The notes under the pieces were generated by a model. The model saw nothing but the letters and a program-made list of their open reading frames with translations, was not told where the DNA came from and ran no database searches. A stretch of DNA of 61,165 nt, from positions 1-61,165 of the IMG/VR virus record IMGVR_UViG_3300042478_002789; one strand, 5' to 3'. Every line of letters starts with the position of its first letter. Position 1 is the stretch's first letter. The translations under genes and the position numbers were made by a program. Source of the stretch: a virus. Taxonomy: Duplodnaviria; Caudoviricetes. This document shows, in pieces, positions 1 to 61,165 of this stretch.

Positions 1-1
1 C

Positions 2-226
2 TCATGGCTTGGCCTCCAGCGCGGCGCGGGCTGCTGCCTCAATGTGCGGAGGAACATTGCTTCCACTCGCATGAGCGTGAATGTAGACCGCCAGCGGCCA
101 GCGCAGCACATCGACAAGGGCGCGGAGCCGGGTGATCTCCTGCGCCATCTTCATCTCCGCTGCGGTCGGTCCTGCGTATCGTGCACACAGGAAATCAACT
201 CCGAACTCCTTGTAGATGTCGCTCAT
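2..226 (-). CDS. Array cassette protein, 74 aa; paralog of 2699..2932
   Basis: MSDIY start, EITRLRA block, EAKP end; SD plus ATGA overlap. Confidence 0.85.
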   Translation of the reverse strand: MSDIYKEFGVDFLCARYAGPTAAEMKMAQEITRLRALVDVLRWPLAVYIHAHASGSNVPPHIEAAARAALEAKP

Positions 227-432
227 GGCTTGGCCTCCTTAATGGCCGCGAAATATGCTGGACGCCAATCACCGTCCTGCGTGTTTTCCCATTCGGCGCC
301 GCACCTTTCGCAGCGTCTGACGGATCGTCTAGACACATACGTCGTGTTGTCTGGCAGGGGCATTGGCACATCAATGGTCATCCGCCGCGCCGTCTTGTGG
401 AGGCAGGAGAGGCAGAGCAATACTTTAGTCAT
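223..432 (-). CDS. Array cassette protein, putative Zn-ribbon
   Basis: CLSC and CERC motifs; EAKP end. Confidence 0.75.
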   Translation of the reverse strand: MTKVLLCLSCLHKTARRMTIDVPMPLPDNTTYVSRRSVRRCERCGAEWENTQDGDWRPAYFAAIKEAKP

Positions 433-743
433 GGCGCAGCATCTTCAAGCGCGTAGGTCGCTGTTTTCTGATGGTTATAGCAGTTAGTGCATTGAGCCGC
501 CACGCTAGGGTGTGGCGTGGCTTGAATCCGTCGAAGCGCCCTTTCCAGCACCTCGACGCGGGCGCGCAGCCTCTCAACCTCAGCAGCGGCAATTGCAGCC
601 TCTGCTTTCTCCCGCTGGGCTTCCCACAACTTGTATTCCACGCCTTTGGGAATTCGGTGACCAAAACCTATGCTGGTCTTGTCGGGGTCTATTCCCTCTG
701 CAACGCAGAGTGCGCGTGCGACTGCTTCAACAATGTCGCTCAT
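429..743 (-). CDS. Array cassette protein
   Basis: Start reassigned to MSDIVEAVARAL after the junction SD; EVERLRARVEVLE block; ends EDAAP. Confidence 0.8.
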   Translation of the reverse strand: MSDIVEAVARALCVAEGIDPDKTSIGFGHRIPKGVEYKLWEAQREKAEAAIAAAEVERLRARVEVLERALRRIQATPHPSVAAQCTNCYNHQKTATYALEDAAP

Positions 744-985
744 GGCTTGGCCTCCTCCTTGAACGCGCATCTGTCCACGCCATCCTTTTCCCTGCGATTG
801 ATCTGCCCACCGTTAGGCACAAATGGGGTCAAAATCGGCAAGAAGAATGCTGCGGGAAGCCGCAGGTCCATCTGGTTCTCTTTGAAGTACCGGCAGAGTC
901 CATCACCACTTGGATGCAGCCTGCCGTTCTTCGTGCGCTCCCACTCCGCGTAGATGCAGCCGACGCAAGTTGATGGCTCGCTCAT
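740..985 (-). CDS. Array cassette protein, Cys-containing
   Basis: CVGC and two further Cys; EAKP end. Confidence 0.75.
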   Translation of the reverse strand: MSEPSTCVGCIYAEWERTKNGRLHPSGDGLCRYFKENQMDLRLPAAFFLPILTPFVPNGGQINRREKDGVDRCAFKEEAKP

Positions 986-1218
986 GGCTTGGCCTCCTTG
1001 TCGAGCCGAGCGATGAGCGCGTCGGCGAACATGACCGCGTCATACGCGCATCCATTGAAGGTTCCGCTTGAGCCGTCGTAGCTAGAGTTCGCGAGCTGCC
1101 CCGCGAGACACGCAGTCGCGATGCGCTCGCGTCGGTCGGCGCGGAGGCGCTCGATCTCGGCTCGCATCAACGCGATCTGCCGCCCCGCGATATCATATGC
1201 CTTCTGATTGTCGCTCAT
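982..1218 (-). CDS. Array cassette protein
   Basis: EIERLRA block followed by a RERIATACLAG...AVMFADALIARL domain typical of small phage early proteins; EAKP end. Confidence 0.8.
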   Translation of the reverse strand: MSDNQKAYDIAGRQIALMRAEIERLRADRRERIATACLAGQLANSSYDGSSGTFNGCAYDAVMFADALIARLDKEAKP

Positions 1219-1442
1219 GGCTTGGCCTCCTTCAGCTTGGCGTGTATTGGGGTTGCGTTGAGTAACCGACCGCTGGCTGGATGGATGCGGTCGTTCAACG
1301 CTCCAACGAGTTCTTCAGGTGGGCGCGGCAACCTGACATCCCTCTCCAGCACCTCGATGCGGGCGCGGAGGCGCTGGTTGTCGGCATTAAGCTCGCACAC
1401 TTCGCGAGATAGCTTCTCTATGATTTCGTAAACGTCGCTCAT
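1215..1442 (-). CDS. Array cassette protein
   Basis: MSDV start, RLRARIEVLE block, EAKP end. Confidence 0.8.
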   Translation of the reverse strand: MSDVYEIIEKLSREVCELNADNQRLRARIEVLERDVRLPRPPEELVGALNDRIHPASGRLLNATPIHAKLKEAKP

Positions 1443-1630
1443 GGCTTGGCCTCCTCTCGTGTAACGACCAGCTTGATGGTCGGGCGTTTCTCGCGATTTA
1501 GAACCGCATAGCCGGTGATGTGGCCGGTCTTCGCGCGATTGCCATGGGGAAAAACCACGCTGACGGTTGAGTCGGAGCCGTGATCCTTTATCAGAGAGGT
1601 GATCAAGGCTCGCAATTGACCAAGTTTCAC
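1439..1630 (-). CDS. Array cassette protein (GTG start)
   Basis: GTGA overlap in the junction; EAKP end. Confidence 0.75.
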   Translation of the reverse strand: MKLGQLRALITSLIKDHGSDSTVSVVFPHGNRAKTGHITGYAVLNREKRPTIKLVVTREEAKP

Positions 1631-1914
1631 GGCTTGGCCTCCTTCAGCGCGGCGCGCAGATTCTCCTCCAAATGCTCCCAGCCCTTTCCGGCTGGGTCAT
1701 AGGTATCGGCATTCTCGTAGTCGATGAGTGCCTGTGCTGCTGCGCGTATGGTCTCCAACTCCTCCACGCGGGCGCGGAGGCGGGTGATCTCGTTCAGCAG
1801 AAACGCACGGTCTTCATGCGATTTCGGGCAGATCAGCGACGGGCCGTAGCGCCACCGCTCACCTAGTTCGTGCCTCTCGCGTATCTCGGCTAGCTTCTTG
1901 TCAACGTCGCTCAT
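1627..1914 (-). CDS. Array cassette protein, Ea22/Ead-like layout
   Basis: KLAEIRERH...DRAFLLNEITRLRARVEELE...LRAALKEAKP. Confidence 0.8.
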   Translation of the reverse strand: MSDVDKKLAEIRERHELGERWRYGPSLICPKSHEDRAFLLNEITRLRARVEELETIRAAAQALIDYENADTYDPAGKGWEHLEENLRAALKEAKP

Positions 1915-2129
1915 GGCTTGACCTCCTCGTGTAAGACATACTCGTCGGAGACCCAGGCTTCCTCAACCCAAATCCCGTCGAATTTCTTGTTATACTTGTT
2001 ATCCTCAATTTCTTTTGCGCAGGACTCTGCCATCTCCCTATCAGCAAAGACCCTGTAAACATACGTCCGGGTTCTTCCTTCAGAGTAATCGCCTTCAACG
2101 AGAACTATCCAGACGACGTTCTTGGTCAT
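1911..2129 (-). CDS. Array cassette protein
   Basis: VWIVLVEG...VFADREMAE...VEE pattern; ends EVKP. Confidence 0.75.
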   Translation of the reverse strand: MTKNVVWIVLVEGDYSEGRTRTYVYRVFADREMAESCAKEIEDNKYNKKFDGIWVEEAWVSDEYVLHEEVKP

Positions 2130-2156
2130 GGCTTGGCCTCCTTCAGGGCGCGACCG

Positions 2157-2702
2157 CTACTCGCAAGAGTAGATCTGTTCCGACCGCCGCAGCGGCAGCC
2201 ATCGCGGCACGGTCGTGAATGACTTGTCGCGGAACAGGACGCGGTTGGTCGGCTGGATGGTCAGGCGACCGCCATCGGTTCGCAAGAACATGAACTCCTT
2301 TGCCTGAGCCGGCGCGTGTGTGTAGGCGTCTCCTACCGGGATGGCCGTGAACAGGTATTCCGCGCCCAGCTCGGCGTCTGCCGCGCGCACAATCGCGCCG
2401 AGCCCGTCGAGGTAGTCGTAGGTGTGCAGGGAGAACTGCGAGTTGTAGCAGTCCCATTCCTGCGCGTCCTTGATCGTCCACGGATCGGGGTCGCTGCAGA
2501 ACGCCAGCGCGTGAGGCGGAAGGTCTCGGTAGACCGCGCCGCACTCAAGCAGCACCGTGCAGCCCCATGCTCGACCAGGATGGCTGTGCAGGCCGAACCA
2601 GACCGCAGGTAACCATTCGTCGGCGCCGAAGCCGATGAAGGCACCGCAGACCGAAACGTATTGATGGCGTGGCAGGCTGCCGCTGGCGGTGAAGAGCGTC
2701 AT
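2157..2702 (-). CDS. Hypothetical phage protein, 181 aa; largest cassette
   Basis: Starts at a junction ATG; stops at TAG before the next junction. Confidence 0.8.
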   Translation of the reverse strand: MTLFTASGSLPRHQYVSVCGAFIGFGADEWLPAVWFGLHSHPGRAWGCTVLLECGAVYRDLPPHALAFCSDPDPWTIKDAQEWDCYNSQFSLHTYDYLDGLGAIVRAADAELGAEYLFTAIPVGDAYTHAPAQAKEFMFLRTDGGRLTIQPTNRVLFRDKSFTTVPRWLPLRRSEQIYSCE

Positions 2703-2932
2703 GGCTTGGCCTCCAGCGCGGCGCGGGCTGCTGCCTCAATGTGCGGCGGCACGGAATTGCCTGTCTGGTGCGCGTGGATGTAGACCGCCAGCGGCCAGCG
2801 CAGCGAATCGACGCGGGCGCGGAGGCGCTCGATCTCCTGCGCCATCTTCATCTCCGCTGCGGTGGGGCCTTCGTTCTCGCTGCAACAGTCGCGGAGAACA
2901 TCGACCCCGAACTCCTTGTAGATGTCGCTCAT
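2699..2932 (-). CDS. Array cassette protein; paralog of 2..226
   Basis: Start reassigned to MSDIYKEFG; long blocks identical to 2..226. Confidence 0.85.
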   Translation of the reverse strand: MSDIYKEFGVDVLRDCCSENEGPTAAEMKMAQEIERLRARVDSLRWPLAVYIHAHQTGNSVPPHIEAAARAALEAKP

Positions 2933-3183
2933 GGCTTGGCCTCCTTGTTCAGAACTTTGTCGATACGAGCCATCATTGTTGCTTGCTCCACGACTCCGCG
3001 CTCTGTCATTGGTCTCCAGTAGATGAGACCGTTGTGACGAGCGTCGATCAATGCATCCGTCAACTCCATGACGCGAAAGCGGAGGCAAAGAATCTCCTCC
3101 GCTGCGTCGGCAATGATGTGAGCATCCTCCTCGCTGTACATGCGGGCTGCTTGAGCGCAGTCCATTAGGGTTCTATTGCTCAT
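2929..3183 (-). CDS. Array cassette protein
   Basis: DAAEEILCLRFRVMEL (degenerate internal block); EAKP end. Confidence 0.8.
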   Translation of the reverse strand: MSNRTLMDCAQAARMYSEEDAHIIADAAEEILCLRFRVMELTDALIDARHNGLIYWRPMTERGVVEQATMMARIDKVLNKEAKP

Positions 3184-3392
3184 GGCCCATCCTCCTCGCG
3201 CATGGCCCGCACCACTTCTAGGAGATCCTCTTTGTTGGCCACGCCAAACGAGAGCATGCGCTCCAGGTCCACGGAGTGGGCAAGCATCTTCTCGTTGTGG
3301 GCGCGGATGCGGATGATATCGTCGATGGCGTCATCGATATATTCGATCCTCATCTTCCGCATGGCTTGTAGCGTTCGGAATGTTCTGGTCAT
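3180..3392 (-). CDS. Hypothetical protein (array edge)
   Basis: ATGA overlaps on both sides; ends EDGP. Confidence 0.7.
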   Translation of the reverse strand: MTRTFRTLQAMRKMRIEYIDDAIDDIIRIRAHNEKMLAHSVDLERMLSFGVANKEDLLEVVRAMREEDGP

Positions 3393-3673
3393 AGGCCGGC
3401 CTCCTCCTTGATGCGGTTGACGACTGGCCAGAGTTCCTCGTGGACGAGGTCGTGGATGATGTCCTCGGGGGACTTGTCATCGGCGAGGTGGAGTACCATC
3501 CGTTCCTGTGCCTCGTCAAGGATGGCTTCGCGCAGCGTCACCATGATGGCAAGGATCTCCTTCTTGGCTTTGGCCTGGGCCTTCTCGATGCGCTCGTAGC
3601 AATGGAGGGCGGAGCATTGCTCGCGGTGTGCGTCGGTCTCCCGACAGTACTGCTCGTAGCTATACTGGTTCAT
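3389..3673 (-). CDS. Hypothetical protein
   Basis: AAGGAGG SD before MNQYSY; ends EAGL. Confidence 0.7.
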   Translation of the reverse strand: MNQYSYEQYCRETDAHREQCSALHCYERIEKAQAKAKKEILAIMVTLREAILDEAQERMVLHLADDKSPEDIIHDLVHEELWPVVNRIKEEAGL

Positions 3674-3839
3674 GGGGTTCCTCCTTGATGAGGTGGTAAC
3701 CGGCAGCTTGGAGGGCAGCGAGAACAGCGGCGGTATCCTGCCGCCACCACCCTTTCTCCTCTTCGGAGAGAAGGTGCCATGGCTTGTGGGGGTATTCGTT
3801 GACTGCCCATATGGCAGCGATGACATCGAGGTGGTCCAT
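3660..3839 (-). CDS. Small hypothetical protein, 59 aa (not in ORF track)
   Basis: MDHLDVIAAIW...; fills the gap with overlapping start/stop. Confidence 0.55.
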   Translation of the reverse strand: MDHLDVIAAIWAVNEYPHKPWHLLSEEEKGWWRQDTAAVLAALQAAGYHLIKEEPHEPV

Positions 3840-4078
3840 CAGTCTTTCTCCCGTGAGATGGTAAGGAGTTTATCGCACTCCGCTTCTATGACACCTAGGA
3901 GGCGGGCTACGAGGCGGGCCTCACCCTCGCTGGCAAAAGAGAACTGGAGGGTGCCTTGTTGCAGGTGGCGATGCATGGTGAGAAGGTACTCCTCGACAGC
4001 GGTGGCCAAGGGCAGCGGGTCGAGGGGGGTTGTTGGCACAAGCAGCTTGTTGAAGTCAATCTTTTTCTTTCTTGCCAC
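3839..4078 (-). CDS. Hypothetical protein
   Basis: AGGAG SD, GTG start. Confidence 0.65.
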   Translation of the reverse strand: MARKKKIDFNKLLVPTTPLDPLPLATAVEEYLLTMHRHLQQGTLQFSFASEGEARLVARLLGVIEAECDKLLTISREKD

Positions 4079-4125
4079 GTGGCTTTCTCCTCTTGTTTAG
4101 GATGGCGATGAGTTCTTCGACGACT

Positions 4126-4548
4126 TCATTTCGGAGGGCGGGGCTGCACTCCACCGAGACCACGACCATGAGTTGCTTGTGGCCCCGGAAGATGCTGCCG
4201 TCGATGTTTCGGAACGTGGTCTTCATAGCGTAGGTTCCTCATGAGGTTGGCGAGGGCGGCCTCCGGGTCAGAGGGGGGTCGGAGGTAGCGGATGGCGTAG
4301 ACGGCTTCGTTGTTGCGTAGGGATACCGCTTCCAACTGGCGCTTGGCAACCATGTTCTGGATGCGGATGGCAACAGCGGGCCGGGCAATCCCCGTGAAGG
4401 TTGCTAGCTCGGTGGCAGTGAAGTCACTCCCCAGGGTCTGGATTGCCGCTACCACCCTGCGGGTCAAGCGCCCGCCATTGGGGGCACCAAGGAGCGGCTT
4501 CGCAGTATTCGGCGCAACGGACGTTGCTACCTTCACGCTTCTGGACAT
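4126..4548 (-). CDS. Winged-HTH DNA-binding protein (true start probably downstream, near 4467)
   Basis: FTATELATFTGIARPAVAIRIQNMV HTH pattern. Confidence 0.55.
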   Translation of the reverse strand: MSRSVKVATSVAPNTAKPLLGAPNGGRLTRRVVAAIQTLGSDFTATELATFTGIARPAVAIRIQNMVAKRQLEAVSLRNNEAVYAIRYLRPPSDPEAALANLMRNLRYEDHVPKHRRQHLPGPQATHGRGLGGVQPRPPK

Positions 4549-5296
4549 AGAGCTTTCCCTTGTCGTTCTGGTAGGAGATGAAAGCGGTGGCCGTCTCCTC
4601 GGAGTTGAAGAGTTTCACGGCGGACTTGCGCCCCTCCTTCATGACGGCGAAGGTCGTTGGCTTGTACCAGCGGTCCTCGGCGCTGCACTCGGGGTTGCTC
4701 TGGTGGTAGAGGATGCGCTGGGAGATGCGCTCCTCGGCTACGTCGTGGGTCCACACCGGGATGTCCACTACCTGCATGGGCAGGTTGGGGTAGGTAACGT
4801 CACGCACCGAGAGGAACTTGGCCCAATCGCGCAGCATGACGATGACCTGTATGGCCTTGACCTCCATGCCGTGGAGGCGCAGCAACCAAGCGTAGGTATT
4901 GAGTTGGTTCTCCCAATCGGGCTCCACCAGTTGCTTCTGGAAGCGAGAGACAGAGGTGACCTTGTAGTCCTGGAGGATCTGCTGGTCGACCAGCAGGCGG
5001 TCGAACTTGCCGCTGATGGTGACACCGTGGCGAGAGGCGAAGAGCCGCTTCTCCACGATGGCTTCCGTGTCGGCCTCCTCCAGCAGGCGGTGGAAGGCTG
5101 AACCCAAGAGGTTCATGAGGTAGTCGGAGGCGTCCCGCTGGATGTCCCCCGAGTGGGCCTTGGCTAGGCGCACCATCTGCGGGGGTTTCCAGAGGGAGGT
5201 CACCGAGATGTCGGCGTCCCCGATGTCATAGTCGTCCTTGGCGAGGGCGGATACGACGGGCTGGGGCAGGTTGAACTTGTTAGAAAGCGGGTTCAT
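4424..5296 (-). CDS. PD-(D/E)xK exonuclease, Cas4/RecB-like
   Basis: GSAFH, SGKFD, DYK and QLNTY motifs; C-terminal Cys cluster RCAEYC-WC; SD AAGGAG before MNPL. Confidence 0.85.
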   Translation of the reverse strand: MNPLSNKFNLPQPVVSALAKDDYDIGDADISVTSLWKPPQMVRLAKAHSGDIQRDASDYLMNLLGSAFHRLLEEADTEAIVEKRLFASRHGVTISGKFDRLLVDQQILQDYKVTSVSRFQKQLVEPDWENQLNTYAWLLRLHGMEVKAIQVIVMLRDWAKFLSVRDVTYPNLPMQVVDIPVWTHDVAEERISQRILYHQSNPECSAEDRWYKPTTFAVMKEGRKSAVKLFNSEETATAFISYQNDKGKLYVQKREGSNVRCAEYCEAAPWCPQWRALDPQGGSGNPDPGE

Positions 5297-5435
5297 GCAG
5301 GTCTCCTTCATCATGGCGCTTCTTGAATTCGGCGGCGATGCGGTAGTGGCGGAAGGCTTCGTCGTACTTGCCTTCCCATTCGAGGTCAACCGCTTTCTGC
5401 TGGTGCTTCTGGTACAGGTGGTACGTCGTTTCCAC
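5280..5435 (-). CDS. Small hypothetical protein, 51 aa
   Basis: GTG-start ORF ...DLEWEGKYDEA...HEPAF. Confidence 0.45.
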   Translation of the reverse strand: METTYHLYQKHQQKAVDLEWEGKYDEAFRHYRIAAEFKKRHDEGDLHEPAF

Positions 5436-5534
5436 GGGCTTTCCTATATCGTTCGAGGGTCGAGGTGAGTTTGCGGATCCACTCTTCGAGTTGCTCGGGG
5501 GTGAGATCCTCGGGGTCGATGGAAAAGAGGGCGC

Positions 5535-5759
5535 TCAATTTATGGTATCTCCTTGTTGGGGCAGGGTGAGGTAGCTGATGTATTGGAGGACGGCTGCGTT
5601 GTGGGCGGCGAAGAATTCCCCAAACTTGGAGGGGGGCACGATGCCGGCCATCTCGGCAGCCAGTATGCGAGCCAGCATATCCAAACGCCAAGTGGGATCA
5701 ATGTTCTCGAACTTTTCCCAGATGTCGAGGGCACGGTTACGGAATTCGGATTCGGTCAT
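5535..5759 (-). CDS. Hypothetical protein
   Basis: GAGGAG SD before MTESEF. Confidence 0.6.
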   Translation of the reverse strand: MTESEFRNRALDIWEKFENIDPTWRLDMLARILAAEMAGIVPPSKFGEFFAAHNAAVLQYISYLTLPQQGDTIN

Positions 5760-5770
5760 GGCGGTTCTCC

Positions 5771-6136
5771 TCAGAAGTTCCATGCGAGGTTATGGCGAAG
5801 GGCAACATCCTTCATGTTCTCCAAGAGGCAATCCTCGAAGAGACCGGGGATGTGGTCACTCGAAATATCGTGAGCACGTTGCATATCTTCTGCTAGCTCC
5901 CGGCCCAATGTCACCACGGCTGGGATATCTCGGTTGACCAGATCTCCGACACCCCAAGCGCAGTTGGGATCGTCCATCTCCTCAAGGTAGAGGTGGTCGG
6001 GAATGATCCAACCGATGGCGCAGCGGGCATCGCCGGCCCGGTACTTGCAGCCATGCTCGTTCTTGCTGCGCTCGCCCTGTTCGAGGAGACGCTGGATGAC
6101 GTAGTCGAAGATTTCCTGGGGGGTGTTGGGGATCAT
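5771..6136 (-). CDS. Hypothetical protein, paralog family A (copy 1)
   Basis: QG...CKYR...CAIGWIIPD...QRAHD. Confidence 0.8.
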   Translation of the reverse strand: MIPNTPQEIFDYVIQRLLEQGERSKNEHGCKYRAGDARCAIGWIIPDHLYLEEMDDPNCAWGVGDLVNRDIPAVVTLGRELAEDMQRAHDISSDHIPGLFEDCLLENMKDVALRHNLAWNF

Positions 6137-6192
6137 GGGTTTCTCCTTGGGAAGGTGGTCCCCCCACCACTGGGATGAGGGGACCTGGGTGA

Positions 6193-6930
6193 TCAGAAGG
6201 GGATGGAGTCGTCGTACACTCCGGTGTCGAGGGGCTCGGGGTTGGCGACCTCCTTGACCACGGTGAGGCGGCAGACCCGGACCTTGGTGTTCTGGTAGTC
6301 GATGGGGACGGAGACCACGTCGGCGGGGTCCACCTGACAGAGCATGGTGCGCTGCCCACCGAAGCTTCGGAGGTACTCGAAAGAGCAGACGTGGAGGCCG
6401 GTGGAGCAGGTGCTTTCGGGGTCGTCGTCCACCTCGGAGCGGGGCATGGTGTGGGTGGTGCCCACCTTGTAGCAGTTGGTGCGGCTGGTGTGCACATCGT
6501 AGTAGGTGTCGGTGACCTTCTTGTAGAAGAGGAGGTCACCCTCGGGGGTGATGGCGATGTTGTTGGTGGCGACGAAGCGCCAGAGCTGGTTGCGGCTGCG
6601 CATCGAGGGGTTACGCAGCACCTTGTCGAGGAAGGACATGAGGGGGCCGATGTCGAAGCCCTTCTCCTTCATCGAGAGGATGTGCGGGACCATGACGTGG
6701 TCCACCTCGGTGCCGTTGCGCAGCAGCCGGTAATCCTCGATGACGAGGGAGCCATCGGCATACTCCTCGATGGTAGCCCGGGGGGTGATGTGCTCGATGG
6801 CAGCGTCCCACTCGCCCTGCCGGATGCACTGGAGGGCATCAGCGAAGCCCTGCATATCGGAGGTGGCGGTGTAGGTCTGGCCGTCACGGATGATGGTGAC
6901 GGTATTGGTGGTGATGAGATGGGGATACAT
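6193..6930 (-). CDS. rIIB: RIIB-like protein
   Basis: CSTGLHV, DPADVVSVPIDY and KVRVC motifs; adjacent to rIIA. Confidence 0.85.
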   Translation of the reverse strand: MYPHLITTNTVTIIRDGQTYTATSDMQGFADALQCIRQGEWDAAIEHITPRATIEEYADGSLVIEDYRLLRNGTEVDHVMVPHILSMKEKGFDIGPLMSFLDKVLRNPSMRSRNQLWRFVATNNIAITPEGDLLFYKKVTDTYYDVHTSRTNCYKVGTTHTMPRSEVDDDPESTCSTGLHVCSFEYLRSFGGQRTMLCQVDPADVVSVPIDYQNTKVRVCRLTVVKEVANPEPLDTGVYDDSIPF

Positions 6931-6941
6931 GACAGATCCTT

Positions 6942-8774: not shown

Positions 8775-8837
8775 TGGAACCTCACAAAATTGAAAGGAAA
8801 ACTAGGAGCCAGAAAAGGACAAACAAAAAGGCCGGGT

Positions 8838-9113
8838 TCACACCAGCACGGTTAGCTTGTCCCGAGCGGCATCGGGTACATTGCGAATGGCTCGCAGCCT
8901 GTCGTCATAGTCGAGGTCTCCTATCTTGTGGATGATGTCGAAGGTGTCGGTGGCCTTGGAGAAGACGATGTAGGAGGGCTTGCGGAGGTTGGCCTTCTCC
9001 CACAAGAGGATGGGGCTGCACCAACCGAAGGGCTTCTCGTGGATGGGGAAGGCGCTACCCTTTGCCACGAGGGCTGGCCGCCTCCCCGACTCGGTGGAGA
9101 TGAGGTAGATCAT
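8838..9113 (-). CDS. Hypothetical protein
   Basis: GGAGG SD; ATGA overlap. Confidence 0.55.
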   Translation of the reverse strand: MIYLISTESGRRPALVAKGSAFPIHEKPFGWCSPILLWEKANLRKPSYIVFSKATDTFDIIHKIGDLDYDDRLRAIRNVPDAARDKLTVLV

Positions 9114-9352
9114 GCGATCCTCCAGACTCGGATGCCGCCGGGGGCAACCCGGCAGGTGAACTTCATGTTGTGGGTCTTGCCGTAGTCCCGAGCACAAGAG
9201 CGGATTGATTGCTCCTTGGCACGGGGGACGAGGAAGCTATGCCCAACGGACATGAAAGGGAAGGGGTATTTGGTGCGGAGATTGTAGATCTTCTCGGGGA
9301 TGGGGACGGAGTAGGTGATGCGGTAGGTCTCGACTTCGGTACGGTACTTCAT
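9110..9352 (-). CDS. Small putative DNA-binding protein; paralog of 60177..60404
   Basis: VPIP..KYPF..M.VG.SF...GIRVWRIA. Confidence 0.75.
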   Translation of the reverse strand: MKYRTEVETYRITYSVPIPEKIYNLRTKYPFPFMSVGHSFLVPRAKEQSIRSCARDYGKTHNMKFTCRVAPGGIRVWRIA

Positions 9353-9362
9353 GATGGGGTCC

Positions 9363-9557
9363 TCACGGTTGATTGTTGGAAAGAGCGGCTTTGCGGAGAA
9401 GGGTCATCTCGTCATCGGCGGGTCCTCCTATGTCCAACGATTCGTAGATTTGTTGTACATACCAGTCCTGTTCGGCTTGGGTGCGGCTCTTGCCTACACC
9501 CAGGATGCCATTGGATTGGTAGGTCCAGAGCATGAGGTCCTTGTCGTAATGAAACAT
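9363..9557 (-). CDS. Hypothetical protein
   Basis: GAGGA SD; operon packing. Confidence 0.55.
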   Translation of the reverse strand: MFHYDKDLMLWTYQSNGILGVGKSRTQAEQDWYVQQIYESLDIGGPADDEMTLLRKAALSNNQP

Positions 9558-9566
9558 GGGTTCCTC

Positions 9567-9839: not shown

Positions 9840-9852
9840 GGAGGTTCTCCTT

Positions 9853-10071: not shown

Positions 10072-10076
10072 GGGGG

Positions 10077-10448: not shown

Positions 10449-10460
10449 TGGGATATCTCC

Positions 10461-11575: not shown

Positions 11576-11577
11576 GG

Positions 11578-11814: not shown

Positions 11815-11888
11815 GGCTGCCTCCGTGTCGTATGCACTATTGCATACGGTGATGCCGACCCGGTTAAAGATCGGCATCCCCCTAGGCA

Positions 11889-57134: not shown

Positions 57135-58098
57135 CCTTCTTGTTCCTGTCCTTTACCTTTCCGACGCGCATCAGCTTCCATGATTTCTCGTTGCAGTAGA
57201 TGCTGCCCAGGAACCCGAGGGACTTGAGCCACTCGATCTCGTTGGAGTGGGACTTCAGCATCGTATCCTCTACGGGATATCGGATCTTCATACCCATCTC
57301 GATGAGATAGGTCAAGTCATACACGGCGTTGTGCGCCACTTTGCGCAGGGGGGAAGCCATCAGCTTCTGGACCCGCAGCCACATGGCCACTTCGGTTTCG
57401 AGATCCCAGAAGGATTCGGGGAACCAGATGGGCAGGACGTACACCTTGGTGGGCGAGGGGGCAAAGCAGATCATGGTGATCTGGCCCCGCGAGGTCTCGA
57501 TGTCGAAGGCGAACTGTCCCTCCTTGAAGATATCCGCAACCGCTGCATCCATGTCGGCCACGCTCTCCACGATGTGGATGCGTCGGCGGGGGAAGGTGCT
57601 GCGGGGCTTGAGGGATTCCTGCCACGCCTTGCGCATATCCATGGCCACCACGGGCAGGAGGCCCTGCTGCTTGACGATGGCGCGGGGGTTGTGCGTGGGG
57701 ATGACGCGGATGCCGTTGTCGTAGTAGAGGATGTTGCCCCGGTGGTCCGAGAGGTTCTCCCCCGTCAGGCACCACAAGGAGAAGTCACCCATGGCGAGGA
57801 TAAGGTTGTGGCCCTTGGCCACCTCGCGCGCCTTCTGGTAGTGGGGGAGATACTTGCCCTTGAGGATGCCGGCTTTGTGGCGCGGGTTGCCGGCGTCATC
57901 CAGGGGGCAATCCTTCTTCTTGTGGAAGAAGTTGTTGGGATTGCCGTAGGGGGCAAGGTCGGGGAAGACTGTATGGATTTCGTGGGGGCCGAGGTCGGCA
58001 TAGCGCGCGGCCATCTCGAAGAGGGCGGCGGGGTACCCGGAGAGGGGCTTGCCCTCCTTGAGATCCTGGATGCTGGGATAGTCGAGGAGGACAAGCAT
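57127..58098 (-). CDS. UDG-like domain plus 3'-5' exonuclease (N-terminal part of the split PolA)
   Basis: GKPLSG, LAMG, PTHNP (family-4 UDG-like); FDIET (ExoI); AHNAVYD (ExoII); DTML. Confidence 0.85.
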   Translation of the reverse strand: MLVLLDYPSIQDLKEGKPLSGYPAALFEMAARYADLGPHEIHTVFPDLAPYGNPNNFFHKKKDCPLDDAGNPRHKAGILKGKYLPHYQKAREVAKGHNLILAMGDFSLWCLTGENLSDHRGNILYYDNGIRVIPTHNPRAIVKQQGLLPVVAMDMRKAWQESLKPRSTFPRRRIHIVESVADMDAAVADIFKEGQFAFDIETSRGQITMICFAPSPTKVYVLPIWFPESFWDLETEVAMWLRVQKLMASPLRKVAHNAVYDLTYLIEMGMKIRYPVEDTMLKSHSNEIEWLKSLGFLGSIYCNEKSWKLMRVGKVKDRNKKDE

Positions 58099-58103
58099 GG
58101 TAT

Positions 58104-58335
58104 CTCCGGGGAATTGAGGTGGCGGTGGGCAGTACCCCCTAAACGCGAAGCTACGGTGTAAAGTACTGCCTTGCTGCTCTTGGACGCCGCCACTCGCCCT
58201 CAACTACACACCGCAGCTATGGTGGGAGAGGGGTGGTGGTGGAGACAGGTGCATCACGGCCCTGAGGTGCAGGGATGCGTGTGTCTCCTTGAGGGCGCCA
58301 CCACACGCCCTTCGGGGTAGCCTCAGGTACCCCGA
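58104..58335 (-). ncRNA. Candidate structured RNA (hairpins plus pseudoknot or switch)
   Basis: Seven or more complementary segment pairs read by eye; see findings. Confidence 0.45.
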
Positions 58336-58734
58336 TTACGCCGCCGCGAAGTCCACGACGTTGGTGTAGTCCTTGCCGTTGGACCCCTTGGTGGTGGCGT
58401 ACACGATCACGGCTTCGAGGCCCACCATGTTCTCGAACTGCTCCTTCCACGCCACGCCGTCAGCGAGGGACGGATAGAGCTTCTTGAGGTTGCGCTTGGT
58501 GTACTTCTTGGCGGCGGGGGTGAAGTACATGCGGCCAGTGCGCAGCGGGCGGTTGAGTTCCACGCCGGTCATGTCCTGGCCGGAGAGGGCATCGCGCACC
58601 TTGAATTCGAGGACGACGTAGGGCTTGTCCTCGGCGGCGTCAATCTGGTAGCCCGAGACGTAGGCCAGGTACTTGCCCGGCGGGATGTCGCGGATGTCCT
58701 CGATGTCGCCGGGGGTCGTGTTCCAAAAGTCCAT
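58336..58734 (-). CDS. ssDNA-binding protein-like
   Basis: IPPGKY motif; OB-fold-like; downstream of the AAA ATPase. Confidence 0.65.
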   Translation of the reverse strand: MDFWNTTPGDIEDIRDIPPGKYLAYVSGYQIDAAEDKPYVVLEFKVRDALSGQDMTGVELNRPLRTGRMYFTPAAKKYTKRNLKKLYPSLADGVAWKEQFENMVGLEAVIVYATTKGSNGKDYTNVVDFAAA

Positions 58735-58747
58735 TTTCGATTCTCCT

Positions 58748-59500
58748 TTACGATTCGATCTGCTTGAAGATGGCACCCAGATCGAATGGTGCCTCTGCCT
58801 GCACCCGGTGGGGTGCGCTGCATTTCAGGTAACCCATATCACGAGTGGTCTGCGTGTGCAAGACCGGCTTTCCATCTTTTCGCGAGGCGAGCCACACGTT
58901 GTTCATGTAGCGCGCGACGACGTTGGGAAGCTGCTGCCCCAAGAAGGAGGGGAAGGCGCGCATGAGACCGCCGGTCTTCTTGTTCTCGATGAGGCGGATG
59001 TGGGCGATGAGGATGAGGTGGAAGTTGTAGCGGTCGCTGGTGAGGCGCGCAACCTGGTTCTCGAAGCGCTTGTTCATCACGCCCCACATCGACTGGTCGA
59101 AGCCCGCCTTGTCGTCGGAGATGCCGTTCTCCTTGAGGACCTGCGACATGCAGGTATCGTTCCAGAAGGTGGCGCTGTCGACGACGAGCACGGTGTTGCT
59201 ATCCCACGTGGTGAGATCACCGAGGTCCTCCTCAGGAAGCTTCCACTGGGTGGTAAGGGCAATGGACTTCTTCCACGAGTCGGGGTCCTTGGCGGGGATG
59301 CTGTAGTAGGAGACGTTGCTACCCTTGCCCTCCTGCAGGTAGGCGTTGAGGATGGCGAGGTTGTTGTCGAGGTCGAGGATGCGGACCTTGTAGTCCTTGT
59401 TGGCCAAGGTGGCCATGAGTCCGGTCTTCCCTGCCCCGGGGTCACCTAGGAGGAGAAGCTTCACTCGCTTCTGGTTTGGGTGGTTGAGGAAGGATGGCAT
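58748..59500 (-). CDS. AAA ATPase, Sak4-like annealase
   Basis: GDPGAGKT, LDLD, VVDSAT, ILIAH. Confidence 0.8.
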   Translation of the reverse strand: MPSFLNHPNQKRVKLLLLGDPGAGKTGLMATLANKDYKVRILDLDNNLAILNAYLQEGKGSNVSYYSIPAKDPDSWKKSIALTTQWKLPEEDLGDLTTWDSNTVLVVDSATFWNDTCMSQVLKENGISDDKAGFDQSMWGVMNKRFENQVARLTSDRYNFHLILIAHIRLIENKKTGGLMRAFPSFLGQQLPNVVARYMNNVWLASRKDGKPVLHTQTTRDMGYLKCSAPHRVQAEAPFDLGAIFKQIES

Positions 59501-59670
59501 TTCTGGCTCCAATCTATTTCATAATCGTAGGCCCAAGAGGACGACCCATCCGGGAGGATGATGTCGTAGATGCTACCTAGCAGGTCGTAGCCGTGGGGGT
59601 CAACAACTTTTATGGGGGTCCCGGCGGGGTGCGGGCCGAGGGGGGTCTTCAGTTTGTAATCTGCTGCCAT
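59461..59670 (-). CDS. Hypothetical protein
   Basis: ORF fills the operon gap. Confidence 0.45.
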   Translation of the reverse strand: MAADYKLKTPLGPHPAGTPIKVVDPHGYDLLGSIYDIILPDGSSSWAYDYEIDWSQKCHPSSTTQTRSE

Positions 59671-59757
59671 AGCCACACACCAGCGAGGATGGGGAGGACG
59701 AGGGAAGCGCCGAGGGAGACAACGATGAGGATGGCCGCCGCCCACGGAACGAGTTCG

Positions 59758-60177
59758 TCAATAGCTAGATACCACGCCCGCCTCGCGAAAGAGGTCACGT
59801 GAGAGGAAAGCTTCCGCGCCCCATCGCGAAGCAAACTCGGAAGACATTGGAGATGATACCACACGGCGGATTCCTTTCGAGATGACGGAGAGAGCGCAGT
59901 TGCAGCAGGGCGGGTGGGTGACGTAGAGGGTGGCACCTTGCGTGGGGAAGTGTGCGTTGTCAAGCACGTTGCGCTCGGCGTGGATGGTGTAGCGCAGCTT
60001 GATGTCCCGGTCGTTGAGGCGGGAGGCGGAGTCGAGTACGCCCCCAGGGAACCCATTGTACCCCAGGGCGACCTGCCGCTTGTCGGTGCCCACGAGGACT
60101 GCGCCCACCTTGGTGCTGGGGTCCTTGCTCCACGTGGAGATGTGGTGGGCAAGGGCGAGGAAGCGCTCATCCCACAT
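59758..60177 (-). CDS. dCMP deaminase
   Basis: WSKDPSTKVGAV, GYNG, HAE, PCCNC. Confidence 0.93.
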   Translation of the reverse strand: MWDERFLALAHHISTWSKDPSTKVGAVLVGTDKRQVALGYNGFPGGVLDSASRLNDRDIKLRYTIHAERNVLDNAHFPTQGATLYVTHPPCCNCALSVISKGIRRVVSSPMSSEFASRWGAEAFLSRDLFREAGVVSSY

Positions 60178-60404
60178 TAGGCCACGCGCCACACCCGCAG
60201 GCCACGGACGCCGTTTTCTTCGACGGTGCGCACCGTGAAACTGGAGCCCAGCTTCTTGCGGCACCGATTGATGGAGTTGCTAAGGGTGGAGCGCACCTGG
60301 GTTGCTACGAAGAAGGAGTCGCCCACCTGCATGAGGTCAAGGGGGTACTTGATGGGGCGGCCCCGGCGCGGGGGGATGGGCAGGTTGTTCTGGATCTCGA
60401 TCAT
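60177..60404 (-). CDS. Small putative DNA-binding protein; paralog of 9110..9352
   Basis: LPIP..KYP...M.VGDSF...GLRVWRVA. Confidence 0.75.
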   Translation of the reverse strand: MIEIQNNLPIPPRRGRPIKYPLDLMQVGDSFFVATQVRSTLSNSINRCRKKLGSSFTVRTVEENGVRGLRVWRVA

Positions 60405-60688
60405 GTCTCATTCCTTTCTATGCGGAGAGTGTATCCTGCTACCAGCAGGACAGAGTGGAAGTCAAGGAGGTTGGGTGTGCGATCCCCGCGTAGCCACTTG
60501 CGGAGGGTTTGACGGTGTATACCGGCGCGCTTGCAGGTGTCAAGCAGGAAGCCGGCGTCGTCGGCAAGGATGGCACCGAGTTGCTGGATGAGGGGATCAA
60601 CGTCGGGGAAGACTCCCTTGTAGTTGGCCTTGGCTGCGGCGAACATGGCTTTCTCTTGGCGCACCCGCAGGGGCACCTGGTGTGTCAT
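60401..60688 (-). CDS. XRE/Cro-type HTH protein
   Basis: CKRAGIHRQTLRKW..G..TP.L......GY. Confidence 0.75.
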   Translation of the reverse strand: MTHQVPLRVRQEKAMFAAAKANYKGVFPDVDPLIQQLGAILADDAGFLLDTCKRAGIHRQTLRKWLRGDRTPNLLDFHSVLLVAGYTLRIERNET

Positions 60689-60957
60689 GTTACGTCCTTT
60701 CCTGCGAGGAGGTCGCGAGCCAGGGAGGGTGCATCCCAGAAGCCGTCACCCTCCACGATCTTCTGGAGACCGGCGCGGTAGCGGGCGATCTCATCTCGGA
60801 GGGCGTCGCCTTCAGCCAGTTCGCGATTTAGTCTTTCCAACTCCTCCACGCGGGCGCGGAGGCTATCAGTTAGAATTGTCGCAAGTCGAGCGCATTCCAA
60901 ATGCTCCTCTTTAAGCCTTCTATTCTCGATTCGCAGCTTGCTCACGATGTCGCTCAT
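60685..60957 (-). CDS. Last array cassette protein
   Basis: MSDIVSKLR after the junction; LRARVEELE block. Confidence 0.8.
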   Translation of the reverse strand: MSDIVSKLRIENRRLKEEHLECARLATILTDSLRARVEELERLNRELAEGDALRDEIARYRAGLQKIVEGDGFWDAPSLARDLLAGKDVT

Positions 60958-60969
60958 GGCTTGGCCTCC
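60953..60969 (-). repeat. Cassette-junction repeat copy
   Basis: ctcatggcttggcctcc, exact copy. Confidence 0.97.
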
Positions 60970-61165
60970 TTCAGGGCAGCGAGCAGGGCTTTGAATTTCT
61001 CTCCCCAATACCAACTGCGCTCGTAAGCGAAAAAATCGTCTGCTGCTGCGCGGATGCGCTCCAGCACCTCCACGCGGGCGCGGAGGCGGGTGATCTCCCT
61101 CGCTGCGTCCAATTGAATTTCTGGTGAATCATAATAAGAGTACATCGTGTTTTCTGTTAAGAGAC
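60954..61165 (-). CDS. Array cassette protein; starts across the window junction (ATG at 5..3)
   Basis: MSLLTENTMYSYY...EITRLRARVEVLE...ALKEAKP if the ends overlap by 1 nt. Confidence 0.8.
   Translation of the reverse strand, partial: LLTENTMYSYYDSPEIQLDAAREITRLRARVEVLERIRAAADDFFAYERSWYWGEKFKALLAALKEAKP

What the first reader, a model, noticed from the sequence alone, without database searches (positions are those of the whole stretch)
1..3405. Gene-cassette array joined by one shared SD/stop/start repeat (continues at 60685-61165)
Seen: about 16 consecutive short genes, mostly 190-310 nt and one about 570 nt. They are separated by 12 exact or near-exact copies of GGAGGCCAAGCC-(A/G)TGA (1, 222, 739, 981, 1214, 1438, 1627, 1910, 2126, 2699, 2928, 60953) and 3 degenerate copies (429, 3180, 3389). 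The module is simultaneously the SD, the last codons (EAKP-stop) of the upstream gene, and the start (usually MSD) of the next gene. Genes outside the array have ordinary, variable SD spacers. Inference: any crossover between two copies deletes, duplicates, excises or inserts whole genes that remain translationally coupled. That would make this an integron-like but integrase-free accessory-gene exchange platform, plausibly for anti-defence or host-takeover proteins. The closest known analogues are start-associated sequences of Cluster K mycobacteriophages and T4-type promoter-bounded modules, which are largely intergenic; here the repeat lies inside coding sequence.
Basis: partly seen in the sequence, partly recalled or inferred. 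Interest (0 to 1): 0.92.

Follow-up and report, generated by a model that had tools for sequence, protein, structure and literature searches.

The report
Shuffled phage gene array with shared junctions
An uncultured lake phage carries a row of at least 17 tiny genes joined by one near-identical ribosome-site/stop/start sequence, and related phages differ by whole and half genes swapped at that sequence and at a second repeat inside the genes.

Summary
GGAGGCCAAGCC(A/G)TGA ("J") occurs 12 times in the window. All copies lie on the minus strand and inside the array (shuffles give 0.17). The window is a whole IMG/VR phage record, and its contig broke inside the array.

I found a second repeat, "R" (CGCCTCCGCGCCCGCGTCGAG, coding RLRARVE), in the middle of about half the cassettes.

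The exact 20-mer occurs in 85 IMG/VR contigs, 66 of them with 2-8 tandem copies. Relatives with 95-99% identical flanks carry different cassette sets. Similarity stops at J or R: of 105 high-identity alignment ends, 45 fall at J and 23 at R, against about 11 and 6 by chance. Half-cassettes recombine at R. Synonymous variants of J are absent from canonical arrays, while sister arrays each carry their own variant. That pattern indicates concerted evolution.

No integrase is present. A Sak4-like annealing protein and a PD-(D/E)XK nuclease are.

Best reading: J is a standard translational-coupling junction that also serves as a short-homology linker for in-frame shuffling. The closest analogue is the PeSL system of T4-type phages. 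Cassette functions are unknown, and recombination is inferred, not observed.

The parts
2929..2944 (-). J copy (exact)
2699..2714 (-). J copy (exact)
2126..2141 (-). J copy (exact). It is not translated by the upstream 181-aa ORF, which stops 15 nt before it
1911..1926 (-). J copy (1 mismatch, GGAGGTCAAGCC; encodes EVKP)
1627..1642 (-). J copy with a GTG start
1439..1454 (-). J copy (exact)
1215..1230 (-). J copy (exact)
982..997 (-). J copy (exact)
740..755 (-). J copy (exact)
223..238 (-). J copy (exact)
2..17 (-). J copy (exact) at the contig end. The next cassette is cut off at base 1
60954..60969 (-). J copy (exact), the last one in the array
3389..3404 (-). Degenerate J (GGAGGCCGGCCTATGA, 4 mismatches)
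3180..3195 (-). Degenerate J (GGAGGATGGGCCATGA, 4 mismatches). This junction type recurs at the upstream edge of arrays in other loci
429..444 (-). Degenerate junction (5 mismatches) with an ATGA overlap
61059..61088 (-). R copy (RLRARVEVLE codons)
60835..60864 (-). R copy
2798..2827 (-). R copy
1753..1782 (-). R copy
1344..1373 (-). R copy
543..572 (-). R copy
93..139 (-). Degenerate R (ITRLRALVDVL)
   Evidence: family D5
1138..1173 (-). Degenerate R (IERLRADRRE)
   Evidence: family D6
3389..3673 (-). Gene upstream of the array (94 aa). Its stop lies in the degenerate J at 3389
3180..3392 (-). Cassette, 70 aa
2929..3183 (-). Cassette, 84 aa, ends KEAKP
2699..2932 (-). Cassette, 77 aa, R family. 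Paralogue of 2-226
   Evidence: D3, 85%
2157..2702 (-). Cassette, 181 aa. Matches phrog_3704 ('ferredoxin', E 9e-13)
1911..2129 (-). Cassette, 72 aa
1627..1914 (-). Cassette, 95 aa, R family
1439..1630 (-). Cassette, 63 aa, GTG start
1215..1442 (-). Cassette, 75 aa, R family
982..1218 (-). Cassette, 78 aa, degenerate R
740..985 (-). Cassette, 81 aa, Cys-rich
429..743 (-). Cassette, 104 aa, R family
223..432 (-). Cassette, 69 aa, with CxxC pairs
2..226 (-). Cassette, 74 aa, degenerate R
60954..61145 (-). Cassette, 63 aa from the first ATG (frame open to 61163), R family
60685..60957 (-). Last cassette, 90 aa, R family. Its C-terminal half is kept in relatives while its N-terminal half varies
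58748..59512 (-). Sak4-like ssDNA-annealing protein. A candidate recombinase, not part of the array
   Evidence: phrog_124 E 1.2e-21; AAA_24
4424..5389 (-). PD-(D/E)XK exonuclease. A candidate recombination partner

Best explanation
The array is a hyperplastic block of small accessory genes. It sits inside a long leftward (minus-strand) non-structural transcription unit of an uncultured lake phage.

Each gene is joined to the next by one standard 16-21 nt junction, J. J contains a strong SD (GGAGG), a fixed 7-nt spacer, and the next gene's ATG overlapping the previous gene's TGA. Translation of one cassette is therefore probably handed on to the next. This step is inferred from the sequence.

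Because J is near-identical at every boundary, it also acts as a short-homology linker. Annealing, crossover or replication slippage between two J copies would delete, duplicate or exchange whole cassettes and leave every reading frame and every coupled start intact.

A second conserved stretch, R (21-30 nt, coding RLRARVE(V/E)LE), lies in frame in the middle of about half the cassettes. It would do the same for half-genes, producing new N-half/C-half chimeras.

The phage's own Sak4-like annealing protein and PD-(D/E)XK nuclease are plausible catalysts. This too is inferred.

Repeated exchange keeps the copies within an array identical (concerted evolution). It also draws on a cassette pool shared with phages that have other backbones.
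For: 1. Motif statistics and strand bias.
- 12 of 12 J copies and 6 of 6 R copies are on the minus strand and inside the array.
- Across 85 loci plus the window there are 246 J and 114 R copies on one strand and 0 on the other.

2. Sharp motif edges. Conservation rises from background to at least 0.91 over exactly 16 nt, with weaker conservation (0.62-0.85) over the next 5 nt (193 distinct contexts).

3. Relatives differ in the array.
- L078/L043, L033/L093, L046, L044 and L079/84/89 have flanks 78-99% identical to the window but different cassette sets.
- Their alignments stop at J or R.

4. Breakpoint counts in 56 non-redundant arrays.
- Alignments of at least 95% identity and 100 nt give 105 ends: 45 at J (null 10.7 +/- 3.1, maximum 21), 23 at R (null 6.4 +/- 2.4, maximum 16) and 37 elsewhere.
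- Of those 37, by my reading of the printed contexts, 15 lie at degenerate ERLRA-type codons and 4 lie just outside the J tolerance.

5. Half-cassette shuffling. 45 distinct R proteins give 28 N types, 29 C types and 41 combinations. 8 of 28 N types occur with at least 2 C types, and 11 of 29 C types with at least 2 N types.

6. Neighbours change. 236 cassettes fall into 152 types. The 10 types seen in at least 3 arrays almost always have different neighbours.

7. Nucleotide-level homogeneity.
- The 85 canonical loci hold 115 canonical 20-mers and 0 synonymous variants.
- Sister arrays carry their own variant: 8 of the 9 J-like copies in L147 start with GTG, and 4 are exactly GGAGGCCAAGCTGTGA. 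L139 has GGAGGCGAAGC in 4 of 5 copies. L163 has GGAGGCAAA in 4 of 4.
- The R-A-R codons are CGC-GCC-CGC in 26, 24 and 26 of 27 instances, against a background of 52/55/52%.

8. J is kept even where the upstream ORF stops before it. This holds for 7 of 130 distinct J pairs, with the stop 12-47 nt before the end of J.

9. Lake metagenomes.
- 24 runs hold 73-88% of the array's words.
- In 4 runs the array exists only as short contigs that end at J or R, while long contigs begin at 3288.
- Of the 24 loose ends shown (72 more were not shown), about 17 are at J and 4 at R.

10. Recombination genes are present and integrases are absent.
Against: - No recombination event was observed. Everything rests on comparing assembled contigs.
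- Contigs from mixed populations can be mosaic paths through shared cassettes, so long-range order may be unreliable. Each single adjacency across J or R is still spanned by k-mers longer than the motif.
- J offers only 16-21 nt of identity, at or below the usual minimum for efficient homologous recombination (recalled knowledge).
- 37 of 105 high-identity ends are not at strict J or R.
- Breakpoints at gene boundaries are also what selection on random illegitimate recombination would produce.
- The exact 20-mer occurs at ordinary cellular operon junctions. 41 of 44 genome contigs hold a single copy; of the other 3, 2 are phage-like arrays. It is therefore also a generic coupled junction.
- Translational coupling itself is untested. 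RNA accessibility of the SD shows no pattern.
Confidence: 0.7

Rival explanations
1. J is conserved only because it is a translation or regulatory signal. It could be an optimal re-initiation site, or the binding site of a phage or host factor, like the SAS of Cluster K mycobacteriophages. Under this view the array's variability comes from ordinary illegitimate recombination filtered by selection for intact genes, and J plays no part in the exchange.
For: - J contains SD, spacer, start and stop in the positions expected for coupling.
- The same 20-mer is used at single cellular operon junctions in many phyla.
- J is very short for homologous recombination.
- SAS show that start-linked repeats can exist with no recombination role proposed (passages read).
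Against: - Many breakpoints lie inside genes at R, where gene integrity does not dictate the position.
- Different arrays work with different junction variants, yet each array is internally uniform. That fits homogenisation better than one optimal sequence.
- No RNA structure or accessibility pattern was found, and there is no Rfam match.
Confidence: 0.15
2. The array is simply a tandem family of paralogues made by duplication and divergence. J (MSD start, KEAKP end) and R (central coiled-coil motif) are conserved parts of one ancestral small gene, kept by protein-level selection.
For: - About half the window's cassettes carry R or a degenerate R.
- A loose single-linkage cluster joins 85 of 237 cassette proteins.
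- A recent paralogue pair exists: 2-177 and 2699-2874, 85% identical.
Against: - Unrelated cassettes (181 aa, Cys-rich, 63 aa, 72 aa) carry the same J.
- J persists untranslated after the 181-aa ORF.
- Synonymous sites of J and R are fixed far beyond codon bias.
- The 76 loose clusters include 52 singletons.
Confidence: 0.1
3. The apparent shuffling is an assembly artefact. Metagenome assemblers break and misjoin at the repeats.
For: - The window contig ends inside a J copy.
- Logan contigs are fragmented across the array.
- The joints reported by read laying have sides of only 20-29 nt, about the length of the motif, so they are unreliable.
Against: - J (16-21 nt) and R (21-30 nt) are shorter than assembly k-mers, so a clonal genome would assemble through them.
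- 7 groups of 2-4 loci recover the same array at 97% identity or more. For the members whose contig names were shown, the IMG/VR metagenome ids differ.
- 24 runs hold 73-88% of the window array's words.
Confidence: 0.03

Closest known systems
PeSL (promoter-early stem-loop) cassettes of T4-type phages (Arbiol et al. 2010, PMC2839356: abstract and sections 13 and 16 read; Comeau et al. 2014, PMC4122927: abstract read)
   Same: - A short conserved expression signal is repeated between small ORFan genes in a hyperplastic region.
- Differences between close relatives map to the repeats.
- Exchange is thought to keep each gene correctly expressed.
- No site-specific recombinase is involved.
   Different: - PeSLs are intergenic, with conservation spread over about 100 bp, and consist of a sigma-70 promoter plus a terminator stem-loop.
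- J is 16-21 nt and has no promoter or terminator.
- J lies in the overlap of two coding sequences and acts, if at all, at the level of translation.
- There is also an intragenic linker (R) with no PeSL counterpart.
- Mini-circles were shown for PeSLs. They could not be tested here.
Start-associated sequences (SAS/ESAS) of Cluster K mycobacteriophages (Pope et al. 2011, PMC3203893: passages read)
   Same: - An asymmetric repeat that contains the SD.
- A single orientation.
- It sits just before start codons, mostly ATG.
- It is confined to the non-structural genes.
- It is linked to unrelated gene families.
- The upstream stop sometimes lies inside it.
   Different: - The sequence differs: GGGATAGGAGCCC, 13 bp.
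- SAS copies are scattered rather than at every junction of one array.
- The authors proposed no role in recombination.
- ESAS inverted repeats have no counterpart here.
- J is also found at cellular junctions, whereas SAS is nearly absent from host genomes.
Integron gene-cassette arrays
   Same: A one-directional array of promoterless small accessory genes bounded by a repeated site. Content differs between close relatives and is drawn from a shared pool.
   Different: - No IntI or other tyrosine or serine recombinase is present.
- J is not an attC-type imperfect palindrome.
- Exchange would be by homology rather than site-specific.
- The genes overlap (ATGA) instead of being separated by attC.
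Susskind-Botstein 'linker' model of modular phage evolution and boundary sequences in lambdoid phages (recalled from memory; not read here)
   Same: Short homologous sequences at module boundaries direct exchange between otherwise unrelated segments.
   Different: In the cases I recall, the linkers are rare and debated. Here the linker sits at nearly every junction of an array and also inside genes.
Concerted evolution and segmental gene conversion in tandem multigene families (general knowledge, recalled)
   Same: Copies within one array are more uniform than copies between lineages. Chimeric genes form at conserved blocks.
   Different: Here the homogenised blocks are 16-30 nt, while the sequences between them are largely unrelated.

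Membership tests
Integron | IntI-type tyrosine recombinase next to the array | tested here: not met
   PF00589 has no match in the window at E <= 0.01, while the control genomes all match. PF00239 also has no match.
Integron | attC sites (imperfect inverted repeats that fold as hairpins) between cassettes | tested here: not met
   J is a 16-21 nt asymmetric block with no consistent pairing. Genes overlap by ATGA, which leaves no room for an attC.
Integron | attI site and Pc promoter at the head of the array | tested here: inconclusive
   No promoter-like site lies in or just upstream of the array. Six sites were found in 1-14000 against 6.2 expected, and the nearest lie around 13400. The scan is consensus-only.
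PeSL cassettes (T4-type) | The repeat contains a sigma-70-type early promoter and a terminator stem-loop | tested here: not met
   No promoter-like site falls in 1-4000. Terminator-like sites are not above the shuffles (9 found, 11.6 expected) and none lies at J.
PeSL cassettes (T4-type) | The repeats flank ORFans in a hyperplastic region, and indels or replacements between close relatives map to them | tested here: met
   Fourteen of the 15 cassettes and cassette-like ORFs scanned have no significant family.
PeSL cassettes (T4-type) | Mini-circles formed by exchange between neighbouring repeats | not testable with these tools
   Only Logan contigs were available for the runs that hold the array.
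Start-associated sequences (Cluster K) | 13-bp consensus GGGATAGGAGCCC located 3-7 bp before the start codon | tested here: not met
   J is GGAGGCCAAGCC followed directly by ATG.
Start-associated sequences (Cluster K) | One orientation, confined to non-structural genes, associated with unrelated gene families | tested here: met
   12 of 12 copies are on the minus strand and in the array. The cassettes fall into 76 loose clusters.
Tandem paralogue family under concerted evolution | Copies are homologous along their length | tested here: not met
   237 cassette proteins give 76 clusters with 52 singletons, and 152 types at 70% identity. Only the R family is related, and only mosaically.
Tandem paralogue family under concerted evolution | Repeats are uniform within an array and diverge between lineages | tested here: met
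   115 canonical copies and 0 synonymous variants in the canonical loci. Sister arrays carry their own variants.

The most novel reading that the evidence does not exclude
J and R together form a dedicated two-tier, in-frame shuffling system. J exchanges whole translationally coupled cassettes. R recombines N- and C-terminal halves of small coiled-coil proteins into new combinations. This would give lake phage populations a combinatorial library of accessory, possibly counter-defence, proteins. The library would draw on a cassette pool shared between phages with unrelated replication and structural modules. The uniformity of the linkers would itself be maintained because it enables exchange, making this a homology-based, recombinase-gene-independent functional counterpart of the integron.
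Probability: 0.3. Interest if true: 0.85.

Novelty: new variant of a known kind. Interest (0 to 1): 0.72.

Why it matters
Whether short conserved 'linker' sequences guide the modular evolution of phages is an old question with few clear examples. PeSLs in T4-type phages are the best documented case.

This array is an unusually clean natural example. The linker is a translational junction rather than a transcriptional cassette. It is present at almost every boundary. A second linker acts inside genes. Dozens of related and unrelated contigs allow breakpoints to be counted against a null.

If the mechanism holds, three things follow:
- Phages can keep a high-turnover accessory-gene region permanently expressible without any dedicated recombinase.
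- It becomes directly testable how much homology phage annealing proteins need in nature.
- It suggests a simple design rule, a standard coupled junction, for building shuffleable gene arrays.

There is also a practical point. Such arrays break metagenome assemblies, so their diversity is under-sampled.

Tried and rejected
RNA-level explanations
- R contains GCCTCC, the complement of the SD part of J. I tested whether R masks the SD. The R-L codons that make up GCCTCC vary (CGC 12 of 27, CTC 16 of 27), and only the central CGC-GCC-CGC is fixed.
- Local folding gives SD accessibility percentiles of 2-82 across 11 J copies, with no pattern.
- There is no Rfam family in the window. I rejected this idea as unsupported.

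Cassette function
- PHROGs, Pfam and NCBIfam give nothing significant for 14 of the 15 cassettes and cassette-like ORFs scanned. The exception is the 181-aa gene (phrog_3704 'ferredoxin', E 9e-13). Sub-threshold hits are DUF7336, bZIP_2, phrog_28300 and four NCBIfam models.
- The protein Atlas returns only hypothetical clusters, with a weak 0.82 lead to a cluster in which 44% of members carry Ead_Ea22. Its structural neighbours are helical. This is a lead only.

Cultured relatives
- blastn of window 1-3700 against 50,697 phage records found no match.
- A 35-nt J-centred query gave 92 records, each with a single place, at E about 1, which is chance level.
- The best PolA hit is Caulobacter phage Kuura at 34%. 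The host remains unknown.
- Two array-bearing contigs binned into MAGs labelled Rubrivivax and Blastomonas. I regard that as weak evidence.

Read-level joints
- Read laying reported 13 'skip' joints. Their sides are 20-29 nt, about the motif length, so they are uninformative.
- No part of the coverage is used as evidence of absence.

Within-array versus between-array spacer distance
- Using a broad GGAGG-N7-RTGA definition gave 2.72 against 2.89. This is uninformative because most fetched arrays share the canonical J by ascertainment.

Backbone clustering
- Single-linkage tblastx clustering of the flanks merged 73 of 86 sequences (85 loci plus the window). It was too permissive to define backbones.
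- I relied instead on tblastn of the window's ORFs. By that test, 60 of 85 loci show little or no similarity outside the array.

Literature
- The string GGAGGCCAAGCC occurs in 11 papers, of which 10 were listed, all about eukaryotic genes.
- Searches for boundary or linker sequences and for coupled repeated junctions in phages found nothing comparable.
Supplements of the SAS and PeSL papers might list further motif features that I could not see.
- The Sak4 papers were seen only as a search listing.

Full report
What is there

The window is a complete IMG/VR virus record of 61,165 bp. IMG/VR classes it as 'linear' and CheckV rates it 100% complete. On its minus strand, from about 3673 down to 1 and again from 61165 down to 60685, lies a chain of short ORFs (63-104 aa, one of 181 aa). 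Their starts and stops overlap as ATGA.

The motif GGAGGCCAAGCC(A/G)TGA ("J") occurs 12 times at up to 1 mismatch. All copies are on the minus strand and within the array. Shuffled sequence gives 0.17 copies. Two further junctions (3180, 3389) are 4-mismatch versions, and one (429) is more degenerate still.

In 11 of 12 copies J encodes E(A/V)KP-stop of the upstream ORF. The next ORF starts at the ATG inside J, reading MSD in 6 cases and MSE in 1. Other ATGA junctions in the genome have varied SD and spacer sequences. An independent repeat finder returns the same families.

The array crosses the window ends

The first 40 nt of the window repeat 2698-2737, so the contig ends inside a repeat. 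A 4.9-kb IMG/VR contig, L062, matches window 693..1 at 100% and 61165..57511 at 99.8%. Between them it carries 564 nt with one more J copy of its own. The array is thus continuous. The genome is presumably circular or circularly permuted. The window probably lacks about two cassettes because the assembly broke there.

A second repeat inside the genes

Six cassettes contain CGCCTCCGCGCCCGCGTCGAG ("R", at most 3 mismatches; shuffles give 0.02). It extends to about 30 nt and encodes RLRARVE(V/E)LE in frame. Two more cassettes have degenerate versions.

In 85 related loci plus the window I count 246 J and 114 R copies on the array strand and none on the opposite strand. R lies a median of 114 nt after a J and 137 nt before the next. 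It is in frame 0 in 66 of 76 cases.

Genomic context

The phage encodes the following:
- an RIIA-like protein and a large terminase;
- a T7-type DNA polymerase split by an intein;
- a dCMP deaminase;
- a Sak4-like single-strand annealing protein and a PD-(D/E)XK nuclease.

No tyrosine or serine recombinase is found. No cultured phage is close.

The array lies mid-way in a long leftward gene block. That block appears to start at an AT-rich divergent promoter-like region near 13,400. No promoter-like or terminator-like sites above the shuffled expectation occur within the array. That it is a single operon is inferred.

Of the 15 cassettes and cassette-like ORFs scanned, none has a significant family match except the 181-aa gene (phrog_3704). 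The R-family proteins look helical.

Distribution

The exact 20-mer (J plus GCGA) occurs in 85 IMG/VR contigs. Of these, 66 hold 2-8 copies at up to 2 mismatches, spaced about 200-500 nt apart on one strand.

Only 25 of the 85 show protein similarity to the window outside the array. The other 60 show little or none. Examples of the other backbones carry a primase, a PAPS-reductase-like gene or a methyltransferase. Even so, 10 of those 60 share array segments of at least 100 nt at 90% identity or more with the window.

In 596 Gb of prokaryote genomes the 20-mer occurs in 44 contigs. In 41 it is a single copy, and these sit at ordinary operon junctions such as permease-to-ATPase in ABC transporters. 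There it again encodes ..EAKP-stop followed by MSD or MSE. Of the other 3, L127 and L132 are phage-like arrays, and L106 holds two copies 2 kb apart that I did not characterise. The sequence is therefore a workable generic coupled junction. What is special to these phages is its repetition.

Do relatives differ, and where?

Relatives whose flanks are 93-99% identical to the window (L078/L043, L033/L093, L044, L091), and others with more diverged flanks (L046, L079/84/89), carry different cassettes in different orders.

For example, the L078 array is about 2.1 kb, against at least 3.5 kb in the window. It shares only the 181-aa cassette whole. It shares several half-cassettes, and each of those alignments starts or stops at a J or an R.

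In L078, L044 and L079 the last cassette keeps the window's C-terminal half (from 60792 or 60778 downward). That half is fused at R to the N-terminal half of a different cassette. This is the product expected of an R-by-R deletion.

I then counted alignment ends over 56 non-redundant arrays, excluding ends near contig ends.
- At 95% identity or more and 100 nt or more there are 105 ends. 45 fall within 12 nt of J (random expectation 10.7 +/- 3.1, maximum 21). 23 fall at R (expectation 6.4 +/- 2.4, maximum 16). 37 fall elsewhere.
- The enrichment holds at every threshold tried. At 80% identity and 60 nt the counts are 221 and 101 of 656.
- By my reading of the 37 printed contexts: 15 are at degenerate ERLRA-type codons, 4 at IKRLEE-type codons, 4 lie 13-20 nt from J, 6 are at the ends of the 181-aa gene, 6 are at other places, and 2 are artefacts of the window's contig end.

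At the protein level, 45 distinct R-family proteins resolve into 28 N-half types and 29 C-half types in 41 combinations. 8 of the 28 N types are seen with 2-4 C types. 11 of the 29 C types are seen with 2-3 N types.

Cassette diversity is very high: 236 cassettes make 152 types at 70% identity. The 10 types seen in at least 3 arrays nearly always have different neighbours. The terminal type, for instance, has 7 different upstream types in 8 arrays.

Population data

24 lake-water metagenome runs hold 73-88% of the sampled words of window 1-4200. They may belong to few sampling campaigns. I laid four of them.

In all four, the array is represented only by short Logan contigs (122-1023 nt among the pieces listed). 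Their ends cluster at J and R. Contigs of 7.9 and 10.9 kb begin at 3288.

Of the 24 loose ends listed (72 more were not shown), about 17 sit at J, 4 at R, 2 at 2179 and 1 at 3679. One of them reproduces the L033-type neighbour of the 181-aa cassette.

Because J and R are shorter than the assembly k-mer, such branching implies that alternative neighbours coexist in the samples. Contigs cannot tell recombinants within one population from co-occurring relatives.

What keeps J constant?

Conservation is a sharp block: 16 nt at 0.91 or more, then 5 nt at 0.62-0.85, and background on both sides.

Protein-level selection for EAKP does not explain it, for three reasons.
- The 85 canonical loci hold 115 canonical 20-mers and no synonymous (GCN, AAR) variant. 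The window's own codon usage would predict about half to be variants.
- J is retained where the upstream ORF stops 12-47 nt before its end (7 of 130 distinct consecutive pairs).
- In R, the codons CGC-GCC-CGC are used in 26, 24 and 26 of 27 instances, against 52/55/52% in the genome.

A unique optimal sequence does not explain it either. Several of them are arrays built on their own variant:
- L147, L145 and L158 carry GTG-start junctions, most often GGAGGCCAAGCTGTGA;
- L139 has GGAGGCGAAGC in 4 of 5 copies;
- L160 has GGAGGTGAA in 4 of 9 copies;
- L163 has GGAGGCAAA in 4 of 4 copies.

Uniformity within an array combined with divergence between lineages is the signature of concerted evolution. 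That means repeated exchange or conversion among copies.

Mechanism proposed

Shown here:
- the anatomy of J and R;
- their restriction to the array;
- the variability of arrays between close relatives;
- the concentration of breakpoints at J and R;
- the combinatorial N/C halves;
- the nucleotide-level homogeneity;
- the presence of annealing and nuclease genes and the absence of integrases.

Inferred:
- J functions as a termination/re-initiation junction, so the cassettes are translationally coupled.
- The exchanges are homology-driven, through single-strand annealing by the Sak4-like protein, host RecA, or replication slippage between direct repeats 200-500 nt apart.
- Any J-by-J or R-by-R event keeps all frames intact. 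This last point follows directly from the fixed register of start, stop and frame in J, and from R lying in frame 0.

Rival explanations, with my odds, are in the Rival explanations section: a purely translational signal, a plain paralogue family, and an assembly artefact.

Comparison with known systems

The closest functional analogue is the PeSL system of T4-type phages. There, repeated promoter/terminator cassettes with conservation spread over about 100 bp flank ORFans in hyperplastic regions. They account for the indels between phi1 and RB49, and mini-circles have been detected.

The present case differs in four ways:
- the signal is translational and lies within overlapping coding sequence;
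- it is five-fold shorter;
- it sits at nearly every junction;
- a second linker acts inside genes.

Start-associated sequences of Cluster K mycobacteriophages share the SD-containing, single-orientation, start-linked character. They have a different sequence and distribution and no proposed recombination role.

The array is not an integron. There is no IntI and no attC-type site.

I found no description of this motif or of a comparable coupled-junction array in the searchable literature. Supplements were closed.

Verdict

This is a real and widespread feature. The mechanism remains inferred, and the cassette functions are unknown. I rate it a new variant of a known kind: linker-mediated modular shuffling.

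Noticed in passing
window 54904-55785 (minus strand, inside the polA gene 54385-56715): The T7-type DNA polymerase carries a 294-aa insertion. It starts with Cys, ends with Asn and is followed by Ser, as inteins do. It is exactly absent from the polymerase of L078, whose flanking protein parts are 99.7-100% identical. L091 shows the same gap at the DNA level. This is an intein presence/absence polymorphism among near-identical phages.
   Followed up: partly
L094-L137 (genome contigs): The exact 20-mer GGAGGCCAAGCCATGAGCGA occurs in 44 prokaryote contigs. In 41 it is a single copy, at ordinary operon junctions such as ABC-transporter permease to ATPase. It again encodes ..EAKP-stop followed by MSD or MSE, in many phyla. 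My rough estimate of the chance expectation is 1-3, so there may be convergent use of this junction. I did not model this properly.
   Followed up: partly
window 3180-3195, and the upstream edge of arrays in L019, L029, L030, L042, L043, L053, L067, L075, L078, L086 and others: A second recurrent junction type, GGAGGATGG(A/G)C(G/C)ATGA, appears once per array in many loci, including some with backbones unlike the window's. It may mark a conserved 'entry' cassette.
   Followed up: no
window 13300-13600: An AT-rich switch region (GC 0.49 in 12001-14000, against about 0.61 elsewhere). It has divergent promoter-like sites, a GC-rich terminator-like hairpin (13305-13331) and a 48-nt AT-only palindrome (13385-13432). 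It is probably the boundary between the leftward and rightward gene blocks and possibly an origin.
   Followed up: no
window 6942-8774 (minus strand): A 610-aa protein matches RIIA-type families (phrog_612, E 4.7e-74). That is unusual outside T4-like phages.
   Followed up: no
window 2157-2702 (minus strand); L043, L046, L059, L033/L093: The only long cassette (181 aa, phrog_3704 labelled 'ferredoxin', E 9e-13) recurs at about 95% nucleotide identity in several arrays. These include L059, whose 11.7 kb of flank shows no similarity to the window. In L033 it is separated from the next J by an extra 63 nt.
   Followed up: partly
L012:3271-3699 (orientation as fetched): One cassette in another array (142 aa) looks by eye like a small DUF559/Vsr-type endonuclease. 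If so, some arrays may carry nucleases that could provoke local breaks. No family search was run.
   Followed up: no
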